Positions 13,914 through 39,091 of a stretch of 64,000 bases of DNA are shown here, piece by piece. The notes under the pieces are model-generated. The model saw only the letters and a list, made by a program, of their open reading frames with translations, did no database searches and was not told where the DNA came from. Source of the DNA: Acutalibacteraceae bacterium. GTDB taxonomy: Bacteria > Bacillota > Clostridia > Oscillospirales > Acutalibacteraceae. Position 1 is the stretch's first letter, and every line of letters starts with the position of its first letter. The stretch lies in the NCBI GenBank assembly GCA_051881575.1, contig JBJEQD010000105.1, forward strand, positions 4,316 through 68,315. The letters are read 5' to 3'. The position numbers were made by a program, and so were the translations under genes.

Positions 13914-14307
13914 ACCCTCTGCCCCCGTTAATCATCACTTCAAGCATAAGTATATTCAATACAGATATTTATATTACCGCTGAAAAAATTATTCTGTCAT
14001 TTTCAAAGCGTTACTGTATTTCTGAAAACATATATTAGCACTTTTTGGCAAATCAAAAGAAAACAGAAAGCTTTTTATTTGTTTTTCAAAAAACTTGTTG
14101 TAAATATGCACAAAAATTTAAAAATATATGAATGAAGCTAAAAAAGAACTTATCTATATCTTATGTAGAGAGTATTACTCATATGAATGTTATCTGTTTT
14201 TCAAAAAATGTTTCATTACCTAATCTGTATTAAAACAATTGTATTCGACCGCAGTCGAATTTTATATAAATTATAAATTTTTTCTCAAAAAGAGGAGGTT
14301 TTTTTAA

Positions 14308-16293
14308 GTGAAAAAAACAACAAAAATGACTATTGCGATACTTCTAACCATCATTATGGTATTCGGTTCGTTTGGTGCTGGAAACTCTAATCTTTTTTTC
14401 AAGTTGTTTGAGATTAAAGCATCCGGAGTGCAAGCAGGTATATTTCTTTGGCCAGTACCTTCTTCTTATTCTCTGTCACAAGGCTATAGTTCTAGCCATA
14501 AAGCAATAGATATTCAGAAGTGCGCAAACCAAAATGTAATTGCATCTTATTCCGGAGTCGTGTATAAACTTGATTCCGGAACAAATAGTTCAAGTTCAAC
14601 AGATAGCTCATACGGAACAAGCATGATTATCAAGCACAATATTAATGGGAGTGTTTACTATACCCACTATGCTCATATGGTTAAAGATTCAATCCCTCAA
14701 AGGCTCCGAACAATTGGCGCAAGTGTAAGCCAAGGTGAAATCATAGGAAAAGTTGGAAATACAGGAAATGTTTCTGGATCTTCTGGATATCATTTGCATT
14801 TTTCTATTGCAGATAGCACAGGCGTATGGAACGGACGATTCAACAACACTCCAACAGATAGTAGGCACAACATAAATAGTTCTAGCGGTGTGTCATACAG
14901 ATACAGTATTGAACATGAGCACGACTTTAGTGTTTATCTGTATTACTGGGCAAAACATCCTCACTACAATGATTATAAATGCAAATACTGCGATGCTAAG
15001 CAGGAAAACAGAAATGAAACAAATTATGTTGCATCATGTGAATTGTGCAATCACACCCATAGTTATACAGCCACTTCGGCATCATCTGCCACATGTGAGT
15101 CAGGCGGATACACGACATATAACTGTTCATGCGGAGACAGTTATACAACATATACAAACGCCTTAGGCCATAACTACAGTATTTTATCATATAATGAAAA
15201 CGCACATCCTCATTATGCAGTTTACAAATGCAGCAGGTGCAGTTCAACAAAAAGGACTTCAGAAACCGGTTATCTGAAATCATGTATAGATTGTATTTTC
15301 AGCGGTAAACCGGTTTTAACAGTTACACCGGGCACAAGCAAAACAGAAACTATTTTATTGTCAAGCGTTGTAAACGGTGCCGAATATTATGAATATAATA
15401 TTAAAACTTACTACGGCGATGAAAAGGTTCTATTCAGATATAGTGATGAAGGAGAGCCGGTATCTGTCATTCTTGATTCAGGCAAATATAAAGCATATGT
15501 AGTAATTTACGATAGATTAGCGTCGTATACATTAAAAAGTGATGAAGTAATATTCACCGTTGATGGCGTCTCCGAAGAAATAAGTACAACGGCATTCCAA
15601 AACGGATATTCAATATACTTCAACGCTAACGGTGGTTATGGCGCACCGTCGTCTCAAAGCGGAAAAACCTCTTATACAATTCCGCCAACTACGCCCACAC
15701 GAAACGGATATTCATTCCTTGGCTGGTCAAAAAACAGTAGTGCTTCATCTGCAAGCTATAAAGGCGGAGACTTCATTTATCTTGAAAACGACACAACGCT
15801 TTATGCTGTTTGGGAAAAAGATGAAATCTCCGAGGAAACGACAACAGCAATCCGAAACGGATATTCAATATACTTTAACGCTAACGGTGGTTCGGGAGCA
15901 CCGTCGGCTCAAAGTGGAAAAACATCTTATACAATTCCGTCAACAACACCAACAAGAAGTGGATATACATTTCTCGGTTGGTCAGAAAACAGTTCAGCAA
16001 TTTCTGCCGGCTACAAACCCGGTGACACAATAGTGCTCTCAACCGATACAACCCTTTATGCGGTTTGGCAAAAAGCAGAAGAGCCCACTACATCACCCAG
16101 TAATACTTGCCCTAACTGCGGAGAAGAATTCACGAGTGAAGAAGAATACAATGAACATATTTCAAACTGTGACTCAAATAACGGCAATAACAACAATTCG
16201 GGTGTTAGTTTATTTGGATTGATATTAGCATTTTTTGCAAGTATTATAAGCTTTATAGGAATGGTTCTAATGTTTCCGCTTCTTCTGTTTTAA
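14308..16293 (+). CDS. Secreted/surface M23 metallopeptidase with His/Cys-rich repeats, two InlB B-type repeats and a C-terminal hydrophobic tail
   Basis: Signal peptide; HKAID, YAHM, HLHF M23 motifs; two YFNANGG...GY.FLGWS...LYAVW repeats; GTG start with SD GAGGAGG; AT-rich relative to flanks. Confidence 0.85.
   Translation: MKKTTKMTIAILLTIIMVFGSFGAGNSNLFFKLFEIKASGVQAGIFLWPVPSSYSLSQGYSSSHKAIDIQKCANQNVIASYSGVVYKLDSGTNSSSSTDSSYGTSMIIKHNINGSVYYTHYAHMVKDSIPQRLRTIGASVSQGEIIGKVGNTGNVSGSSGYHLHFSIADSTGVWNGRFNNTPTDSRHNINSSSGVSYRYSIEHEHDFSVYLYYWAKHPHYNDYKCKYCDAKQENRNETNYVASCELCNHTHSYTATSASSATCESGGYTTYNCSCGDSYTTYTNALGHNYSILSYNENAHPHYAVYKCSRCSSTKRTSETGYLKSCIDCIFSGKPVLTVTPGTSKTETILLSSVVNGAEYYEYNIKTYYGDEKVLFRYSDEGEPVSVILDSGKYKAYVVIYDRLASYTLKSDEVIFTVDGVSEEISTTAFQNGYSIYFNANGGYGAPSSQSGKTSYTIPPTTPTRNGYSFLGWSKNSSASSASYKGGDFIYLENDTTLYAVWEKDEISEETTTAIRNGYSIYFNANGGSGAPSAQSGKTSYTIPSTTPTRSGYTFLGWSENSSAISAGYKPGDTIVLSTDTTLYAVWQKAEEPTTSPSNTCPNCGEEFTSEEEYNEHISNCDSNNGNNNNSGVSLFGLILAFFASIISFIGMVLMFPLLLF
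15568..16074 (+). repeat. Intragenic tandem duplication (about 258-nt period) encoding InlB B-repeats
   Basis: AAACGGATATTCAATATACTT(C/T)AACGCTAACGGTGGTT occurs in both copies. Confidence 0.85.
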
Positions 16294-16511: not shown

Positions 16512-17018
16512 GTAGGGAACGCCGTCCTCGGCGTTCCGTGGGGTTTGGTGCGTTTCACGGACAACCGCAAGGCTACGGATTGATTTCAATTTGTAGCGGA
16601 CGATGCTCACATCGTCCAAAATGCAGAAATAACGGATTTTTCAGGATTCAAGGTAGGGCGGGGGCTCGCTCCCGCCGTTTTGGATTTATAAAGAATATAT
16701 CATTTATAGAAAAATTTAACAAATTATTCGCCCATGGCGAATTGGTTCGTCGGGGACGCCGAACCCTACGGATTTTACCGTTAGCAGTTCATATTTCCCG
16801 GAACGCTGAGGACAGCGTTCCCTACGAGAAAATCGTACTGATATCAGGCGTTTTCAAGCAAAAACCGTAGGGGACGGGTCGCCTGTCCCGCATAAAAAAC
16901 CGTTTCAACGGATTTTAAAAATTTGTGCTTTTTCAAGCGGGAGAACGCAGTTCTCCCCTACGGTGTTGCCGAGGTTTTTCTGCTGTTTTCCCGGAACGCC
17001 GGGGACGGCGTTCCCTAC
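16512..17018. repeat. Cluster of nine GTAG-type REP hairpins (REPIN/BIME-like)
   Basis: GTAG+hairpin at 16512, 16593, 16653, 16867; hairpin+CTAC ending at 16576, 16769, 16825, 16961, 17018; first and last units are 26-bp inverted copies (1 mismatch). Confidence 0.85.
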
Positions 17019-17068
17019 TGAATTTTGTGCTTTTGGGGATAATATCGTTTATCCGTAAGTTAATCAAT

Positions 17069-17305
17069 CCTCCGTCATTTGCTTCGCAAATGCCACGCTG
17101 ACGGCGCCGTCCCCCTTTGTCTGCTTCGCAGACATTTCCCCCACACTGCGGGGGAATCGACCTTTTCAAAGGAGGCCAACGAAGCAGTAACCTACTGCAT
17201 AGGCTCCTTTGGCAACTCCCTCCGTCACGGCTGCCGCCTCGGTCGGTGCTTCTGAGCTTTCGCTCAGAGGTTGCCACCGGCAACCCGCACCCTCAAGAGG
17301 GAGGC
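17069..17305. repeat. Two tandem CC(C)TCCGTCA...hairpin...GAGGC cruciform repeats, each with an inner hairpin module
   Basis: Shared start CCTCCGTCA (17069, 17219) and end GGAGGC; internal hairpins at 17076-92, 17118-34, 17136-56, 17251-68, 17270-84. Confidence 0.65.
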
Positions 17306-17396
17306 AGATCGCTGCCCGTAGGGCTGAGGATTGGAAAGGACGCTGAATAATCAAGGTTCACGGTCACACAGTTCGTTCCGCTGAAAAGCGAAATGC

Positions 17397-17507
17397 AATT
17401 CGTTCTTTCATATGCCGCAGGCATATTTCATATTTGCGAAGCAAATATTTCACAGCAAAGCTATTTCACTCGTTCCGAAGGAACGAATTTATTGAAAAAG
17501 CACTTCC
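17397..17507. repeat. TTTCA-punctuated array of short triloop hairpins
   Basis: TTTCA-[TATGCC GCA GGCATA]-TTTCA-[TATTTGC GAA GCAAATA]-TTTCA-[AGC AAA GCT]-TTTCA-[TCGTTCC GAA GGAACGA]. Confidence 0.75.
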
Positions 17508-17601: not shown

Positions 17602-18519
17602 TTATCTTTCAATAGACCAAAGAATCATATCTATTTTTCTTGGTGTCCAAAAATCTGTATTGAATTTATGATTTAACTCATCAGCTTTTTCTCTCATTAT
17701 TTCTATCAAAATGACACCGTCGCTTTTTTTCAAGGAATTGGGATTCATTTTATGCAGTTCATTGCAATATTTGGAGATATATAATTCTTTAAGTCGTTTT
17801 GCAACAAATTGGTCTATTGTTCCGAATTTTTGAGGAAAAATCACCGCTAATAATCCGCTTGCACCCGCTGCGCCAAGTCCGTGTATCTTGGTTGCCAAAT
17901 CTAAGCATTGTTCAATATCGTTATGATTCATTGTAAATATCTGAATTTGAATTTCGGCAAGTAAAGATAAGTTATCTTCGTCAACATATTTTTTTAATGC
18001 TTTTCTCGTTGTTGCCAAACGATTTTTTTGCGTGTATTTCCATACAAAATATTTGTCGTATAAGAAATCATAAAAATCTGTAACTGATAAAGCTTTTATT
18101 TCGTCTGCATTAAGATTTTCAATATATTTTTCTATTGCAATTTGTTCTTCCTTTAAAATTTCGTAATAATGGTTTAGTGCTCTTTCCCAATCCTCTTTTG
18201 AACCGTTTTCCCATAGAAATTTGAGAGATTTTTCTTCTGTAGCATAGCTTTCAAAATTTTTTATTGTCCTATTATCATTATCAATAAGACTTTGCTTTTT
18301 TTCATAATAACACACTTCGTCTGTATTTAATTGCATTGATACTTCATCAAATTTAATTTCATCTATACCATTATTTTTGGATTCGTTTTTGAAGTTTATA
18401 ATTCTTCCTGCTTTATAGCTTTTATGTAGCTTAACTATCAAAAAAATAACTGCCAAGCCAACAAACGCAATAAGAATATAGCTCCCGATTTCTTCAAAAA
18501 GACTATCAAGAATTGTCAT
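17602..18519 (-). CDS. Hypothetical protein: N-terminal TM helix + C-terminal HhH-GPD-like (DNA glycosylase-like) domain
   Basis: TM segment at residues ~12-30; IHGLGAAGASGLL hairpin motif, GTIDQFV acidic motif and terminal IDMILW; strongly AT-rich; SD GAGGTG. Confidence 0.55.
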   Translation of the reverse strand: MTILDSLFEEIGSYILIAFVGLAVIFLIVKLHKSYKAGRIINFKNESKNNGIDEIKFDEVSMQLNTDEVCYYEKKQSLIDNDNRTIKNFESYATEEKSLKFLWENGSKEDWERALNHYYEILKEEQIAIEKYIENLNADEIKALSVTDFYDFLYDKYFVWKYTQKNRLATTRKALKKYVDEDNLSLLAEIQIQIFTMNHNDIEQCLDLATKIHGLGAAGASGLLAVIFPQKFGTIDQFVAKRLKELYISKYCNELHKMNPNSLKKSDGVILIEIMREKADELNHKFNTDFWTPRKIDMILWSIER

Positions 18520-18915: not shown

Positions 18916-18992
18916 TGGCCCGCCCGAAGGGATTCGAACCCCCGATCTTCAGAATCGGAATCTGCTGCGTTATCCAACTGCGCCACGAGCGG
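18916..18992 (-). tRNA. tRNA-Arg (anticodon CCG)
   Basis: Cloverleaf CCGCTCG...CGGGCGG-G-CCA; anticodon loop TT-CCG-AT; T-loop TTCGAAT; encoded CCA; promoter TTGACT-17-TATATT at 19041-19013. Confidence 0.95.
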
Positions 18993-33956: not shown

Positions 33957-34039
33957 CATATTGTGAAATAAATAAATTTATTTATTGCGATAGCAATAGG
34001 GTTTATTGAGCGATTATTTCAGTCATTTATATATCGGAT

Positions 34040-34546
34040 GTGGTTATCATTAAACACATTGCAAATATAATTACTGCCGCCAGATTAATTCTTTCTGTTC
34101 CGCTTATTTTTTCAAAGCCTTTTTCGGCGGCATTTTATATTCTTTATTCATTATGCGGACTGTCCGACATGGCGGACGGATTCGTTGCCCGGCGCACGAA
34201 TACTGAGAGCAAAACGGGCGAAAAGCTTGACAGCGCAGCGGATTTTCTGTTTTTGGCTGTATGCTTCATTAAAATTATTCCGTGTTTATCCCTGCCGCCG
34301 TGGATTTGGGTATGGGTCGGAATCATTTTTGCCATCAGAGTTGTAAATATTGTTATAGGATTTATCCTACACGGAAAAGCATTTGCAATGCACACCCCTC
34401 TCAACAAAATCACGGGACTTCTGCTGTTTTTGATTCCGTTTTTCATTCCTGTGTTTAATATTCTCTGCCCTGTTATTATTACCTGTGTTAGTGCAACTCT
34501 CGCATGCGTGCACGAAGGATATCTGATATTAAAGGATAAAGAATAA
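34040..34546 (+). CDS. CDP-alcohol phosphatidyltransferase family protein
   Basis: ANIITAAR, DMADGFVAR...GEKLDSAAD (DxxDGxxAR...GxxxDxxxD); start codon uncertain (GTG 34040). Confidence 0.85.
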   Translation: MVIIKHIANIITAARLILSVPLIFSKPFSAAFYILYSLCGLSDMADGFVARRTNTESKTGEKLDSAADFLFLAVCFIKIIPCLSLPPWIWVWVGIIFAIRVVNIVIGFILHGKAFAMHTPLNKITGLLLFLIPFFIPVFNILCPVIITCVSATLACVHEGYLILKDKE

Positions 34547-34563
34547 TTTATACCTATTTTTTA

Positions 34564-34637
34564 TTGTCTCTGAAATCAAGTAACCGACGGTTAAATCTTG
34601 TCGCAATTATTAACGGGACGGTTTTTGTCAGAGACAA
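34564..34637. repeat. Degenerate ~75-bp palindrome
   Basis: TTGTCTCTGA (34564) / TCAGAGACAA (34628) arms with inner AACCG.C.GTTAA / TTAACGGGACGGTT. Confidence 0.5.
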
Positions 34638-34698
34638 ATCGTTGTTGGTGTAGTTATAAATATATTTTTGCTCGTTTATAGAATGGAGATGATTATAA

Positions 34699-35466
34699 AT
34701 GAGAATTGCTGCGTATCAATTTGCGGTATCCGGAAATATTAGTGAGAATTATAAAGAAATAGAAAAAGCAATATATCTCGCAAAAACTGAAGATGTTCAG
34801 TTGCTTATATTTCCTGAATGTTCATTAACAGGGTATCCTCCGAGGGATATAGCTAATTCGTCATGTGTTGATTTTAATCTTGTTCAGACAATGTGTGATA
34901 AACTTCAATCAATAGCTAACGAAAATGATATTTCCTTTATTATTGGAACTATATTCAAAGAAAAAGAAATCTACAATAGAGCAATGTTGTTTCAGCCTAA
35001 CAGTCAAATTAAGTTCTATGACAAGCGTGCCTTGTGGGGATGGGATAAAGATAATTTCGCAAAAGGCAGTAATGATGGAATATTTGAAATGGAAGGGATA
35101 CAATTTGGAATAAGAATTTGTTTTGAAATCAGATTTCCTGAATTCTTTCGAGAACTATACAAAAGAAATACAGATATAAATCTTGTTCTATTTTATGATG
35201 TAGCAGATAAAGATGATAACGAAAGATATAACATGATTAGAGGACACTTACAAACTCGAGCAGTTGAAAATGTTACTACCACTATTTCTGTAAATGCTAT
35301 TTCACCATTTCAAACTGCTCCGACAATGGTTTTTGGGAAATCGGGTCAGTGCATAAAAGAATGTGTTAGAAATAAACCTGAACTTCTGATTTATGATTTT
35401 GAAAAGACAGATAATGATTTCGGCGAAAATGGAAGGACATCAATATCTGATATGCTGATTGTGTAG
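34699..35466 (+). CDS. Carbon-nitrogen hydrolase (nitrilase superfamily)
   Basis: IFPECSLTGY (Glu), YDKRALW (Lys), ICFEIRFPE (Cys) triad; AT-rich. Confidence 0.9.
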   Translation: MRIAAYQFAVSGNISENYKEIEKAIYLAKTEDVQLLIFPECSLTGYPPRDIANSSCVDFNLVQTMCDKLQSIANENDISFIIGTIFKEKEIYNRAMLFQPNSQIKFYDKRALWGWDKDNFAKGSNDGIFEMEGIQFGIRICFEIRFPEFFRELYKRNTDINLVLFYDVADKDDNERYNMIRGHLQTRAVENVTTTISVNAISPFQTAPTMVFGKSGQCIKECVRNKPELLIYDFEKTDNDFGENGRTSISDMLIV

Positions 35467-35562
35467 AGTGCAATTGATATTTCAAGACAATGAATTGGAC
35501 AACTTCCGGTTTTGTGATAAATTAACGAATTAATCAGTGCAACAAAAAATACGCAAGCATCA

Positions 35563-35910
35563 GTAGGGAACGCCGTCCTCGGCGTTCCGTGGGATTTAAT
35601 ATGTTTTCACGGACAGCCGCAAGGCTACGAATTGTTTTTCATTTTGTAGTGGACGATGCCCACATCGTCCAAACGAACTTTGTTTCATTATTCGCCTGCG
35701 GCGAATTGGTTCGTCGGGGACGCCGAACCCTACGGATTTTTGTGAATTTGTCCGTTTTCAGGTAGCAATCGTAGGGGACAGTCACCCGTCCCGCATAAAA
35801 ACCGTGCCATTGTTCTTATGTTTTACCGGAACGCTGGGGACAGCGTTCTCTACGAGGACTTTGTGCATTTTCGGGTTCTTTCAGGCGGGCGAACACAGTT
35901 CGCCCCTAAC
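35563..35910. repeat. Second GTAG-REP cluster, homologous to 16512-17018
   Basis: 31-bp identity at 35563 vs 16512; 41-bp identity at 35700 vs 16736; seven units. Confidence 0.85.
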
Positions 35911-36051
35911 GATATTGTCACTGATTTCGGCTGTTTTTTCATAACACCGAAGACGGAATTTCTGCATTTCAATGCCGGAGAAATAAATCCGCTACGACAT
36001 GGTGGAATTTTGCGATTTGAAACAAAATCGGAATTTGGAGGTCACAAGGAT

Positions 36052-36675
36052 ATGAGACAAAAATATACATTCTTTGATGGCGGTACAATAGAATTTGATG
36101 ACACAAGAAGCGTGAAAGAACTCATTGCATACGCTTTCGATTGCTTTGGGTATTATGAGCCATTTGGCATTGATGTAGTATCATTGTTTCAACCTCATCA
36201 CTCTAAAACAGATACCGGGTGGTTTACTACTGATATCAAACGAAGTTGTGCAGATGAAATAGAATATCCGAATGAATTGTGTTTTGCGTATTATCTTCCT
36301 GACACATTCTATTTTGCTGAAGGTGGCTGGGGGCACCATATGAATGATCTTGGTAACCATCCCGTAATACCTAATCCGATTTCTCTTAGGATTAGATTTG
36401 ATGGATTCGATAACACGGTTATAATTAACGGTAAATATTGCTTCCATGATATCATTAATGCTTTGATAAGAACCGGTTATATATCCGATAAATGTAAATC
36501 TTTGAAAGTGTTACCCGTAGGTTGTGCCAATAAATCTTATTCCATCCCCTTTTCCGATCCTATAATGAGATTCTCGCTAACAGATTTTGAAAAAGCTATC
36601 CAACAGTATAATTCAAAATACATCAAGTCAGAACAAGGCGATTGCATATACCATGAAATTTTGCAAATTTGCTAA
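36052..36675 (+). CDS. Hypothetical protein (207 aa)
   Basis: Open AT-rich frame from MRQKYTFF with SD-like GGAGG/AAGGA; the ORF-track extension to 35818 runs through REP DNA and is unlikely. Confidence 0.6.
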   Translation: MRQKYTFFDGGTIEFDDTRSVKELIAYAFDCFGYYEPFGIDVVSLFQPHHSKTDTGWFTTDIKRSCADEIEYPNELCFAYYLPDTFYFAEGGWGHHMNDLGNHPVIPNPISLRIRFDGFDNTVIINGKYCFHDIINALIRTGYISDKCKSLKVLPVGCANKSYSIPFSDPIMRFSLTDFEKAIQQYNSKYIKSEQGDCIYHEILQIC

Positions 36676-36889
36676 TAAACACTACAACCAAAAAAATGTT
36701 AAACTATTAATATAAACAATCTATTGAGCAACATAGCTGACAAAAAATATATTAATAATTTTGACAATGTGATATATACAAAAAGGAAAATACATTTCAG
36801 CTTTTGACATTATTGCAAGATATGATAAAGCAAATAAGCATTCTAGAGAACGAACTTTCAAAACTTCCAATTCGTGAGGTATTAACAAT

Positions 36890-37234
36890 ATGCAAAACAA
36901 CAGAGAATTTTGGGAAGCATTGGATGAACTGGTAGCCAATTCGGAAATTATAATTGACAGGCCAAAAGGAACTGCACATCCCAAGTATCCCGATTTCATT
37001 TATAAAGTTGATTACGGATATCTGAAAGATACATCATCCATGGACGGTGCAGGGATAGATGTATGGGTTGGAAGCGGCGAAAAAAAGATTGATGCGATAA
37101 TGTGTATTGTTGATTTGATAAAAAAGGATTCGGAAATCAAAATACTGATTGGATGCACGGAAGAAGAAAAGAAAATAATATATGAAACACATAACGAAAC
37201 CCGGTTTATGAAAGGTGTTTTAATACGCCGATAA
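36890..37234 (+). CDS. Small inorganic pyrophosphatase-like protein
   Basis: IIDRPKG..HP.YP.FIYKVDYGYL..T.SMDG.GIDVWVG. Confidence 0.8.
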   Translation: MQNNREFWEALDELVANSEIIIDRPKGTAHPKYPDFIYKVDYGYLKDTSSMDGAGIDVWVGSGEKKIDAIMCIVDLIKKDSEIKILIGCTEEEKKIIYETHNETRFMKGVLIRR

Positions 37235-37275
37235 ATTCCGCTTTATTAACAAGTATTCGGAAAGGAGGAGCCCGA

Positions 37276-37668
37276 ATGTTTTCTCCGACGCCTTTCGGCA
37301 CGATGCTTAAACAGCTGCGTGAAGAAAAAGGTCTGTCGCAGGGTGAGCTTGCCGAGGAGCTGAACAAAACAGCTCAGTACATCAGCAACATCGAAAAAGG
37401 CAAAAACAATGCGCCGCCAAATGAGCACGATTTGCAGCTTTTGATAAAAAAGCTTGGTTTGATGGGCGATGACGCCGAAAAATTCAGGATGCTCGCCTAT
37501 GCCGACCGTGGCATGCTTCCGCCCGAAATGTTCAGCTATGTTTTTGAACGGCCGTCGCTTATCGGGCTTATCCGCTGTGCCATGAACAATGAAATCTCCG
37601 AAGATTATTGGAACTGTTCAATCAAAAAAATAAACAACGCCGACATAATCGGCAGAAAGGAAAACTGA
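37276..37668 (+). CDS. XRE-family helix-turn-helix regulator
   Basis: LKQLREEKGLSQGELAEELNKTAQYISNIEKG. Confidence 0.85.
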   Translation: MFSPTPFGTMLKQLREEKGLSQGELAEELNKTAQYISNIEKGKNNAPPNEHDLQLLIKKLGLMGDDAEKFRMLAYADRGMLPPEMFSYVFERPSLIGLIRCAMNNEISEDYWNCSIKKINNADIIGRKEN

Positions 37669-37669
37669 T

Positions 37670-39091
37670 ATGAGCCAAACTCCCGATTATGTTAAATATG
37701 CCGCTTCCGTCGTTCCGAGCGAACGGCAGATAAAATGGCAGGAGCTTGAATTCTATTCATTCATTCATTTCGGAATGAACACATTCACCAATTCCGAATG
37801 GGGCAACGGCAACGACGACCCCGAGCTTTTCAACCCCGAAAAGCTGGACTGCCGCCAATGGGCGAAGGTCTGCCAGCTTGCGGGAATGAAAGGCATGATT
37901 CTGACTGCAAAGCACCATGACGGCTTCTGCCTTTGGCCGACTGCCTACACGGATTACTGCGTTCGTTCAAGCCTCTGGAAAGACGGCAAGGGCGATGTTG
38001 TTGCCGAATGTGCAAAGGCTTGCAAAGAATTCGGCTTGAAATTCGGCATATATCTTTCGCCTTGGGACAGGCACGAGGCAACCTACGGCTCGGGCGAAGC
38101 GTATAACCGTTTCTTCAAAAATCAGCTTCGTGAGCTTCTGACCGCTTACGGTGATATCTTCTGCGTTTGGTTTGACGGAGCGTGCGGCGAAGGCCCCAAC
38201 GGCAAGAAACAAGAATACGATTGGGAGGGCTATTACAAGCTCATCCGTGAGCTTCAGCCCAACGCAACCATTAATGTCTGCGGCCCCGATGTCCGCTGGT
38301 GCGGCAATGAGGCGGGCGTTTGCAGAAAGAGCGAATGGAGCGTCGTTCCCTATTGGCATTCAAACTATGAGCTGATTAACGCCGCAAGTCAGAGCGATGT
38401 TTCAAAGCCGCCTAAAAAAATAAATCCCACCGCCCTTGATCTGGGCAGCAGGAAAGCAATTAAAAAATGCAGCAAGCTGATTTGGTACCCCGCCGAGGTC
38501 AACACCTCGATAAGAAAAGGCTGGTTTTATCACGCCGACGAGGATTATTCGGTCAAACCGCTCTCAAAGCTTATGGAAATTTACTATAACTCGGTCGGTT
38601 CAAACGCCAATTTCCTTTTGAACATTCCCCCGACACCCGAGGGAAAATTCCACGAAAAGGATGTTGAAACCCTGCTCTCAATGGGTGCTCAGCTTGAAAT
38701 AGATTTCAACGAAAATCTTGCCGATGATTCGATAATGACGGATAACCGCCATCTTGACGAAAAGCACACGGGTCAGGCGGCTCTCAGCCATGACCCCGAG
38801 GATTACTGGCACTCGGGCGACAATCCCGAGGGCGCAGAGCTGATTCTTGACCTCGGAGACGACTATGATATCGATAAAATCGTTCTCGGAGAGCATATCA
38901 GAACGGGTCAGCAGATTGAAAAATTTTCGCTTTATGCTGAAATCGACGGAAAATGGAAAAAAATATTCTCGGGAACGATTATCGGCTACAAGCGTATCTG
39001 CCGCTTCAAGGAAATGAGAATTCAGCGCTTCAAGCTCGTCATTGAGCAGGCAAGATGCTTTGCAACAATCGCAAAATTTGAGGCTTATTAA
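37670..39091 (+). CDS. Alpha-L-fucosidase (GH29) with C-terminal F5/8-type domain
   Basis: FIHFGMNTF, LTAKHHDGFCLWPT, YLSPWDRH, VWFDGA, SIRKGWFYH. Confidence 0.92.
   Translation: MSQTPDYVKYAASVVPSERQIKWQELEFYSFIHFGMNTFTNSEWGNGNDDPELFNPEKLDCRQWAKVCQLAGMKGMILTAKHHDGFCLWPTAYTDYCVRSSLWKDGKGDVVAECAKACKEFGLKFGIYLSPWDRHEATYGSGEAYNRFFKNQLRELLTAYGDIFCVWFDGACGEGPNGKKQEYDWEGYYKLIRELQPNATINVCGPDVRWCGNEAGVCRKSEWSVVPYWHSNYELINAASQSDVSKPPKKINPTALDLGSRKAIKKCSKLIWYPAEVNTSIRKGWFYHADEDYSVKPLSKLMEIYYNSVGSNANFLLNIPPTPEGKFHEKDVETLLSMGAQLEIDFNENLADDSIMTDNRHLDEKHTGQAALSHDPEDYWHSGDNPEGAELILDLGDDYDIDKIVLGEHIRTGQQIEKFSLYAEIDGKWKKIFSGTIIGYKRICRFKEMRIQRFKLVIEQARCFATIAKFEAY

What the first reader, a model, noticed from the sequence alone, without database searches (positions are those of the whole stretch)
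35563..35910. Second copy of the REP train with modules dropped and re-ordered
Seen: locus 1 order is A+ B- C+ D+ E- F- G+ H- I-; locus 2 is A+ B- C+ E- G+ F- H-. Hairpins and a few flanking bases are near-identical (31 bp and 41 bp exact blocks; CGCATAAAAA(A)CCGT after G in both), while spacers have diverged, D and I are missing and F/G are swapped. Inference: the mobile unit is 'REP plus short flank', shuffled combinatorially rather than copied as one block; selection or gene conversion acts on the hairpins only.
Basis: seen in the sequence. Interest (0 to 1): 0.68.

Follow-up and report, generated by a model that had tools for sequence, protein, structure and literature searches.

The report
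Two related REP hairpin clusters
The finding is a real second copy of a cluster of small GTAG-headed DNA hairpins (REP elements, the kind spread by a domesticated RAYT transposase) in a gut Clostridia-like genome. The two copies differ by gain or loss of single hairpins, and no re-ordering is needed, so it is an ordinary example of a known class in a little-studied lineage.

Summary
Window 35563-35910 holds seven GTAG-headed hairpin modules plus one headless hairpin. These recur in a nine-module train at 16512-17018, with exact 31-nt and 41-nt blocks, and the hairpins are better conserved than the spacers (91% vs 70%, p = 9e-6).

They are GTAG-type REPs. A strict detector finds 12 in the window, against 0-4 in shuffles, and all 12 lie in these two trains. 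In a pig-gut metagenome each module is 16-450 times deeper than the unique flanks. Related metagenome contigs carry RAYT (Y1 HUH) genes flanked by, or containing in frame, the same A/I-type and H-type REPs.

The two trains are block copies of one another:
- Both share a derived, arm-deleted B module.
- Both share a derived 3' end on C.
- Their A-B and B-C spacers are significantly similar.

The "F/G swap" rests on an ambiguous label. A, F, I and locus 2's "F" all belong to one REP family, and the flanks of the locus-2 copy fit I better than F. Two colinear alignments explain everything with REP-sized indels (D, F, F'/H, I) and no transposition. Single-REP gain and loss and alternative neighbours elsewhere in the metagenome are real.

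Verdict: a new member of a known kind, of modest interest.

The parts
35563..35588 (+). Locus 2 REP A: GTAGGG + 9-bp stem AACGCCG.., loop TCCT
   Evidence: dG -12.3, z -6.1; 26/26 identical to locus 1 A
35609..35628 (-). Locus 2 module B: REP with its 5' arm deleted (GTAG|CCTTGCGGCTGTCC), no hairpin
   Evidence: z -1.1; intact form in L123 and loose ends at 35624/35625
35646..35671 (+). Locus 2 REP C (GTAGTGGACGATG CCCA CATCGTCCA)
   Evidence: z -7.3; canonical form GTAGGGGACGATGCCCACATCGTCCC
35690..35706 (.). Locus 2 hairpin X (ATTCGCC TGC GGCGAAT), no GTAG head; part of the conserved X-E block
35708..35733 (-). Locus 2 REP E (GTAGGGTTCGGCG TCCC CGACGAACC)
   Evidence: 26/26 identical to locus 1 E, inside the 41-nt exact block
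35771..35805 (+). Locus 2 REP G plus conserved right flank CGCATAAAAACCGT. The stem has an A-C mismatch where locus 1 has G-T, so the hairpin looks flipped.
   Evidence: dG -3.8, z -1.1
35828..35853 (-).
   Evidence: (D5: 91% to both)
35887..35909 (-). Locus 2 REP H' (head degraded to TTAG). The stem GGGCGAAC/GTTCGCCC differs from locus 1 H by a compensatory pair. It is identical to the REP found inside the L019 RAYT gene.
   Evidence: (z -4.6)
16512..16537 (+). Locus 1 REP A
16557..16576 (-). Locus 1 module B (the same arm-deleted REP)
16593..16617 (+). Locus 1 REP C
16653..16676 (+). Locus 1 REP D (only in locus 1). It is the most abundant family in the X1 metagenome (depth 2252), and the loop differs from the family consensus at 16667.
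16726..16742 (.). Locus 1 hairpin X
16744..16769 (-). Locus 1 REP E
16800..16825 (-). Locus 1 REP F (A/F/I family)
16867..16903 (+). Locus 1 REP G plus conserved right flank
16939..16961 (-). Locus 1 REP H
16993..17018 (-). Locus 1 REP I, the inverted partner of A (27 nt, 96% complementary)
   Evidence: (I4)

Best explanation
Both loci are mosaic, BIME-like clusters of GTAG-type repetitive extragenic palindromes (REPs). They lie in intergenic DNA of an uncultured gut Clostridia-like bacterium found in pig and ruminant gut metagenomes. Each module is a 23-26-nt unit made of a GTAG(GG) head and a GC-rich hairpin. The modules belong to at least seven stem families that share the head.

Inferred mechanism. 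These REPs are substrates of a RAYT/TnpA-REP Y1 HUH enzyme, which binds the hairpin and GTAG foot on single-stranded DNA and cuts and rejoins next to it. REPs are therefore added or lost one at a time, preferentially beside existing REPs.

Relationship of the two trains. They are old paralogous block copies of one ancestral train with backbone A-B-C-X-E-G-(A/F/I-type)-H. They have since diverged by about 30% in the spacers and by four REP-sized indels (D, F, F' or H, I). The hairpins stayed 83-100% identical. That follows from the need to keep pairing, possibly together with homogenisation against the many other family copies.

No transposition of F relative to G is required.

Shown: anatomy, significance, multi-copy status, block homology, colinear alignment, and RAYT-REP association in related contigs. 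Inferred: RAYT activity on these REPs, the direction of the indels, and how the block was copied to a second site 19 kb away.
For: REP identity.
- GTAG heads and hairpins are present.
- Strict detector: 12 sites against 0-4 in shuffles, all inside the two trains.
- The trains are extragenic: one between convergent genes, one between same-direction genes.
- No Rfam family matches, and there are no T-tract terminators in locus 2.

Multi-copy status.
- In X1 the modules have depth 80-2250 against about 5 in the flanks.
- Logan contigs break exactly at REP A.
Those loci hold 358 strict REPs against 15 in shuffles, 78 stem types, and mixed-stem trains of up to 9 REPs.
- Pairing is maintained: the Y/R arm positions are C-G 96 times, T-A 56, T-G 2 and C-A 0.

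RAYT link.
- Five Y1_Tnp genes lie in the REP-ascertained loci. Pfam PF01797 is above cutoff for the three scanned (L019, L030, L073), and NCBIfam REP_Tyr_transpos gives E = 1e-14 to 1e-19. L012 and L099 were found by tblastn only (E = 1e-21 to 1e-36).
- The His-hydrophobic-His motif (PNH[IV]H), WQ, and Y in YI..N are invariant, also in E. coli RayT.
- L012 and L073 are flanked by I-type REPs. L099 and L019 carry A/I-type or H'-type REPs in frame.

Block ancestry.
- Both loci share the truncated B and the derived C end.
- Spacer similarity is significant (p < 0.002).

Colinearity.
- Searches give colinear alignments.
- The flanks of F' fit I better than F.

Stability. The orthologous copies in X1 and X2 keep the same order, as does the orthologous pair L079/L127.
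Against: - No RAYT gene lies in the 64-kb window and the rest of the genome is not available, so the enzyme link rests on related contigs.
- NCBIfam scores (53-68 bits) are below the 80-bit curated cutoff.
- Metagenome depth mixes species, so per-genome copy number is unknown.
- Seven different stems under one enzyme is unusual. Published RAYTs are each tied to one REP family (PMC6006769).
- The F' stem is one base closer to F than to I and shares CTACGAG with F, so a real rearrangement is not excluded.
- Both colinear models need four indels.
Confidence: 0.68

Rival explanations
1. A real local rearrangement occurred. After the train was duplicated, F and G (or H and I) changed places, through recombination between REP hairpins or through excision and re-insertion of one REP with its flank.
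For: - The F' stem is 24/26 identical to F and shares CTACGAG with it.
- The diagonals of the F and G matches cross.
- Recombination between different REPs does happen in this system. L123 carries a chimeric REP (C 5' arm + F 3' arm) at the junction of a tandem duplication.
Against: - F, F', I and A are one family. F' is 23/26 identical to I, and its flanks fit I better.
- Colinear alignments need no crossing.
- G->F/I and F->H junctions with similar spacers are multi-copy units elsewhere, so F' need not descend from locus 1's F.
Confidence: 0.12
2. The two trains were assembled independently at two REP insertion hot spots from the same genomic vocabulary of mobile 'REP + short flank' units. 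There is no block ancestry.
For: - Every module is multi-copy and has alternative neighbours.
- Flanks of the A/F/I REP are not conserved across 141 metagenome copies beyond one or two bases.
- Trains with the same vocabulary in different orders are common in related contigs.
Against: - The same rare arm-deleted B sits in the same orientation between A and C in both loci.
- Both share the same derived C end.
- Spacers are 70-76% identical (p < 0.002).
- Seven modules are colinear.
Confidence: 0.08
3. The hairpins are kept chiefly because they work for the host at the RNA or DNA level, for example as 3' mRNA stabilisers, transcription attenuators, or binding sites for nucleoid or topoisomerase proteins. 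The trains would be functional arrays rather than transposon debris. This is not exclusive of the best explanation.
For: - Hairpins are conserved while spacers drift.
- There is a compensatory pair in H, and Y/R covariation is perfect.
- The trains sit downstream of genes.
- D is followed by a short T-run.
- Such roles are reported for enterobacterial REPs (PMC3733652, PMC3333891).
Against: - Modules lie in both orientations.
- Locus 2 has no terminator-like site.
- Decayed members (B, locus-2 G, the TTAG head of H') are tolerated.
- A bovine relative has a different intergenic sequence at this site.
- No usable RNA data were found.
Confidence: 0.1
4. Assembly artefact: the order inside one train was scrambled because assemblers collapse or mis-join short repeats.
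For: Short-read contigs break at REP A.
Against: - Independent contigs of X1 reproduce 35716-35799, 35771-35907 and 35879-36200 with no differences.
- Diverged orthologues in X1 and X2 keep the E-G-F'-H' order into the unique right flank.
- The locus-1 adjacencies C-D, G-H and H-I are also seen.
Confidence: 0.02

Closest known systems
GTAG-tagged REP families and their clusters (Di Nocera et al. 2013, PMC3733652)
   Same: An unpaired GTAG at one end of a 6-13-bp GC-rich stem with a short loop. Location is intergenic. Several families can occur in one genome. Large clusters of variable composition include flanking segments.
   Different: - That survey lists no Firmicutes (0 mentions).
- Here at least seven stem types share a GTAGGG head within a single 500-nt train.
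- Adjacent REPs usually differ in stem (144 differ against 32 the same).
E. coli BIMEs and the REPtron / TnpA-REP (Ton-Hoang et al. 2012, PMC3333891; Corneloup et al. 2021, PMC8266576)
   Same: Mosaic arrays of REP variants with linker motifs. A single Y1 HUH gene is flanked by its REPs. GTAG is needed for recognition, and cleavage occurs next to the hairpin.
   Different: - E. coli BIMEs alternate orientation regularly and use three related REPs (Y, Z1, Z2) with a bulged stem.
- These trains have irregular orientation (+-++--+--) and perfect short stems.
- No biochemistry exists for this lineage.
RAYT subclass 2.4 / Group 4, with REPs inserted in frame inside the tnpA-REP gene (Quentin et al. 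2018, PMC6006769)
   Same: The RAYT genes of L019 and L099 each carry two in-frame REPs. One lies between the first beta-strand and the His-hydrophobic-His (HUH) motif, and one lies between that motif and the catalytic Tyr. The ORFs are otherwise intact.
   Different: Subclass assignment was not tested phylogenetically here. That subclass is described as abundant in Cyanobacteria and Bacteroidetes.
REPINs of Pseudomonas (Bertels & Rainey 2011, PMC3116915)
   Same: Inverted REP pairs act as candidate mobile units tied to a single-copy RAYT. A+ and I- (or A+ and F'-) bound the trains as an inverted pair of one family.
   Different: REPIN arms are about 20-70 nt apart and form one long hairpin. 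Here the like arms are 453 nt and 240 nt apart, with unrelated REPs between them.

Membership tests
GTAG-type REP | Conserved GT[AG]G tetranucleotide at the 5' foot of the hairpin | tested here: met
   15 of the 16 GTAG-bearing modules have GTAG within 0-1 nt of the stem. H' of locus 2 has TTAG.
GTAG-type REP | Short (20-40 nt) GC-rich palindrome able to fold as single-stranded DNA | tested here: met
   dG ranges from -7.4 to -12.3 kcal/mol with z from -3.2 to -7.3 for A, C, E, F, H, I, F' and H'. B (arm deleted) and locus-2 G are decayed. D and locus-1 G are marginal.
GTAG-type REP | Extragenic location | tested here: met
   Locus 1 lies between ORFs ending at 16293 (+) and 17602 (-). Locus 2 lies between 35466 (+) and 36052 (+).
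GTAG-type REP | High copy number within one genome | tested here: inconclusive
   Module depth is 16-450 times the flank depth in a metagenome that holds this strain, and assemblies break at REP A. However, related species share these REPs and the genome itself was not available.
REP-RAYT system (REPtron) | A Y1 HUH (RAYT/TnpA-REP) gene flanked by REPs of the same family | tested here: met
   Met in related metagenome contigs only. L012 and L073 are flanked by I-type REPs at 16-184 nt. L099 and L019 contain A/I-type or H'-type REPs.
REP-RAYT system (REPtron) | RAYT gene present in the same genome as these trains | not testable with these tools
   None is in the 64-kb window. X1 has only patchy matches of at least 80% to the L019 RAYT.
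REP-RAYT system (REPtron) | Curated family score for REP-associated tyrosine transposase (NCBIfam NF047646) | tested here: not met
   Scores are 52.6-67.9 bits against an 80-bit cutoff, with E = 1e-14 to 1e-19. Pfam Y1_Tnp is above its cutoff. These are RAYT-like Y1 proteins, not curated equivalogs.
BIME (strict sense) | REPs in regularly alternating orientation separated by a small set of conserved linkers | tested here: not met
   Orientation is +-++--+-- and +-+-+--. Linkers are conserved only between the two trains and at some recurrent junctions.
REPIN | Two inverted copies of one REP close enough to form a single long hairpin | tested here: not met
   A and I are 96% complementary but 453 nt apart, with seven other modules between them (I4).
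Intrinsic terminator | GC hairpin followed by a T-run on the transcribed strand | tested here: not met
   Locus 2 has 0 sites. Locus 1 has 5 against 1.7 expected, of which only D and the tail of I overlap REPs.
Known RNA family (Rfam 15) | Covariance-model match | tested here: not met
   No match to either train at E <= 1. Only Gut-1 lies beside locus 1, plus a sub-threshold S15-leader hit beside locus 2.

The most novel reading that the evidence does not exclude
In gut Clostridia a RAYT with relaxed stem specificity may serve a whole vocabulary of hairpins, requiring only the GTAGGG foot plus any short GC stem. It may also mobilise composite multi-REP segments bounded by an inverted A/I-type pair as units. 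That would explain block copies of trains at several loci. It would also explain why identical 26-nt REPs occur in contigs of 37-68% GC, through horizontal spread or extreme conservation.
Probability: 0.15. Interest if true: 0.55.

Novelty: new member of a known kind. Interest (0 to 1): 0.3.

Why it matters
REP/RAYT systems have been studied almost only in Proteobacteria. The papers read here do not list Firmicutes among hosts of GTAG REPs. These data show a rich GTAG-REP vocabulary, with RAYT genes flanked by or containing their own REPs, in gut Clostridia-like contigs.

The practical consequences are modest. The trains break short-read assemblies, can seed recombination (see the chimeric REP in L123), and can be mis-called as ORFs. 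For the specific claim, the useful result is negative: the apparent re-ordering comes from labelling members of one REP family as distinct modules, so it is not evidence for a new shuffling mechanism.

Tried and rejected
- The single genome-contig scan was wasted. It returned only 8 loci, of which 4 were Clostridia with related REPs and 4 were consistent with chance. The source genome and taxon therefore could not be recovered.
- The look-up of encoding contigs on flanking proteins gave only short Logan contigs ending at the REPs.
- A viral-contig scan for REP E found nothing. The scan for REP C found 8 loci with the canonical form, none related to the window.
- No metagenome locus is orthologous to the window.
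- RNA runs hold too little of the region to test transcription.
- Rfam at E <= 1, the terminator scan and the promoter scan gave nothing for the trains.
- phmmer of one RAYT against PDB sequences found no relative. I did not repeat it with a profile because my alignment already contained E. coli RayT.
- CRISPR array rejected: the repeats differ and the spacing is irregular.
- MITE with terminal inverted repeats rejected: there is no consistent unit.
- The ORFs 16538-16870 and 35589-35765 as genes rejected: they are made of REP sequence.
- A 9-nt inverted match at the right ends of both trains (17041-17049 and 35908-35916) is within chance expectation (about 2 per comparison), so I did not build on it.

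Full report
**1. What is in the sequence**

Window 35563-35910 lies between a carbon-nitrogen hydrolase gene (34699-35466, +) and an unannotated 207-aa ORF (36052-36675, +).

- Read in the orientation of their GTAG heads, the modules are A+ (35563), B- (35628), C+ (35646), E- (35733), G+ (35771), F'- (35853) and H'- (35909, head degraded to TTAG).
- A GTAG-less hairpin X (35690-35706) abuts E.
- The first train (16512-17018) lies between an M23-peptidase/Flg_new ORF (14308-16293, +) and a 305-aa ORF (17602-18519, -). It reads A+ B- C+ D+ [X] E- F- G+ H- I-.
So is the shared GTCCCGCATAAAAA(A)CCGT after G.

**2. More than chance**

- A strict detector required GTAG, a stem of at least 7 paired bases with at least 50% GC, and a loop of 3-6 nt. 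It finds 12 sites in the 64-kb window against 0-4 in ten shuffles, and all 12 lie in the two trains.
- Folded as single-stranded DNA, A, C, E, F, H, I, F' and H' have dG of -7.4 to -12.3 kcal/mol, and no shuffle in 200 folds as well. X has z -4.5 with one shuffle in 200 folding as well. B does not fold in either locus. D and G are marginal.
- Independent contigs of a pig-gut metagenome (X1) reproduce the locus-2 junctions without a single difference. A roughly 90% identical orthologous contig in X1 and X2 keeps the order E-G-F'-H' into the unique right flank. The arrangement is therefore not an assembly artefact.

**3. What the modules are**

Each is a GTAG-type REP.

- In X1 the unique flanks have word depth about 5. 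A has 1060-1400, C 350-1300, D 2250, X/E 1350-1950, F 1260, and G, H, F' and H' 80-440.
- Short-read contigs that carry the flanking genes stop exactly at REP A.
Those loci hold 358 strict REPs against 15 in shuffles, with 78 stem types. They form mixed-stem trains of up to nine REPs, and neighbouring REPs usually differ in stem (144 differ, 32 are the same).
- The two degenerate arm positions of the pattern covary perfectly: C-G 96, T-A 56, T-G 2, C-A 0.
- Outside the REP itself the flanks of 141 copies are not conserved, apart from a C two bases upstream and a G just downstream.
- Neither train matches any Rfam family. Locus 2 has no terminator-like site.

**4. Link to a RAYT transposase**

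- tblastn with E. coli RayT, and then with the hits themselves, found five Y1 genes among the REP-ascertained loci: L012, L019, L030, L073 and L099.
- The three scanned pass Pfam Y1_Tnp. They match NCBIfam REP_Tyr_transpos at E = 1e-14 to 1e-19 but below its 80-bit cutoff.
- The His-hydrophobic-His motif (PNH[IV]H), WQ, R and the Tyr of YI..N are invariant in an alignment that includes E. coli RayT.
- L012 and L073 are flanked by I-type REPs, 16-184 nt upstream and 42 nt downstream. This is the classical REPtron layout.
- L099 carries two A/I-type REPs in frame. L019, which lies between pgk and tpiA, carries two copies of GTAGGGGCGAACTGTGTTCGCCC in frame. That is exactly locus 2's H' with an intact head.
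- In-gene REPs are the hallmark of RAYT subclass 2.4 (PMC6006769).
- No RAYT lies in the window, and I could not recover the rest of the genome, so the link to this organism is by family and not by genome.

**5. How the two trains are related**

They are block copies.

- B is the same arm-deleted REP in both loci (GTAG|CCTTGCGG(C/T)TGTCC). The intact form GTAGGGACAGCCCTTGCGGCTGTCC is seen in L123 and in loose ends at 35624/35625.
- Both C copies end in GTCCAAA, whereas the canonical C-type REP ends in GTCCC.
- The A-B and B-C spacers are 70% and 76% identical (p < 0.002 by shuffling). The flanks of G are also similar.
- Across the aligned backbone, REP columns are 146/160 identical and spacer columns 71/102 (p = 9e-6).
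- Inside REPs the changes are mostly in loops. H/H' differ by a compensatory pair (A-T to C-G). G differs by a G-T to A-C exchange that looks like a flipped hairpin and weakens the locus-2 copy.

**6. Is the order really changed?**

- A, F, I and F' are one family (stem GGAACGCYG).
- F' is 24/26 identical to F and 23/26 to I.
- Its left and right flanks align with those of I (p = 0.026 and 0.010) better than with those of F (p = 0.14 and 0.05).
- A global alignment pairs A B C X E G and then I with F', leaving D, F and H as locus-1-only and H' as locus-2-only.
- With cheaper gap extension, G...H aligns with G...H', and F' appears as a 55-nt insertion just before the shared TTTGTGC motif.
- Either way, every shared module is colinear and the differences are four REP-sized indels.
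- The junction types involved are themselves multi-copy in X1 and X2: C->X-E, E->G, E->H, G->F/I, H->I/F and F->H. Independent insertion of a high-copy REP is therefore at least as plausible as a swap.
- Orthologous copies of both trains in X1 and X2, and the orthologous pair L079/L127, keep their order. The trains are thus stable at strain level and the duplication is old.

**7. Mechanism**

- Shown: GTAG hairpins, pairing maintained, multi-copy status, clustering, RAYT association in relatives, block paralogy with REP-sized indels.
- Inferred from the E. coli, Stenotrophomonas and Marinomonas biochemistry (PMC3333891, PMC8266576): a RAYT binds the hairpin and GTAG foot on single-stranded DNA and cuts and rejoins beside it. 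This adds or removes REPs next to existing ones.
- Hairpin-mediated slippage explains the arm-deleted B. Recombination between REPs explains chimeras such as the one in L123.
- How the whole block reached a second site 19 kb away is open. Candidates are ectopic conversion between REP clusters, or mobilisation of a composite bounded by the inverted A/I pair.

**8. Comparison and novelty**

This is a REP cluster of the GTAG superfamily with a RAYT of the in-gene-REP type. It is not a strict BIME, because orientation does not alternate. It is not a REPIN, because the like arms are 240-453 nt apart.

- The surveys I read list no Firmicutes among GTAG-REP hosts (PMC3733652, 0 mentions).
- They note Clostridia only for Group 1 RAYTs or IS200 (PMC5581495, PMC6006769).
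- I cannot exclude that the lineage has been described elsewhere.

Verdict: a new member of a known kind. The re-ordering claim is not needed. Interest is modest.

Noticed in passing
window 17420-17495 (-): A Gut-1 RNA (Rfam RF01706, 53.2 bits against a gathering score of 50) lies just right of train 1. Its function is unknown. Depth in X1 is about 400 against about 7 for unique flank, so it is also multi-copy or shared among species.
   Followed up: partly
window 17047-17333: A second hairpin-dense repeat family without GTAG heads (stems such as CATTTGC/GCAAATG, GTCTGC/GCAGAC, TCTGAGC/GCTCAGA). The DNA fold z-score is -6.1. X1 depth is 130-800. A variant in other contigs skips 17215-17311.
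   Followed up: partly
L019:1343-1837 and L099:464-979 (-): These RAYT genes each carry two REPs in frame at the same two protein positions. L019 has H'-type REPs and L099 has A/I-type REPs. L012 and L073 are RAYTs flanked by I-type REPs.
   Followed up: partly
L123:3765-4110: A tandem duplication of an F-B-C block. Its junction is a chimeric REP (GTAGGGGACGATGCCC|TCAGCGTTCC) made of the 5' arm of a C-type REP and the 3' arm of an F-type REP. This shows recombination between unlike REPs at their loops.
   Followed up: no
L012-L131 and L133-L140: Identical REP sequences occur in contigs of very different base composition. The 26-nt A/F/I REP is found at 37-68% GC, and the canonical C-type REP at 36-59% GC. 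This points to very wide conservation or to horizontal spread.
   Followed up: partly
window 35771-35792 vs 16867-16889: REP G has G-T at stem position 6 in locus 1 and A-C in locus 2. The locus-2 hairpin reads like the locus-1 hairpin on the opposite strand while the flanks keep their orientation. It may be a hairpin flip or two substitutions.
   Followed up: no
window 14001-16000 and 34001-38000: Both trains abut low-GC stretches (36% and 38-40%, against a window mean of 46%). In bovine-gut relatives (X3, X5) the sequence departs from the window at 35512 and rejoins near 36062. The trains may therefore sit at borders of variable regions.
   Followed up: no
window 15586-16080: Two 240-nt direct copies spaced 255 nt apart (78% identity) lie inside the M23-peptidase ORF. 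They correspond to its two Flg_new (Listeria-Bacteroides repeat) domains.
   Followed up: no
L074:1973-2687, L109:6261-6979, L022, L067: In another metagenome species, trains form part of repeats of about 330-720 nt at about 85% identity that extend beyond the REPs. Block-copied trains are therefore not peculiar to this window.
   Followed up: no
window 18916-18992 (-): A tRNA-Arg(CCG) gene. A 13-bp perfect palindrome lies at about 18730, between it and the 305-aa ORF.
   Followed up: no
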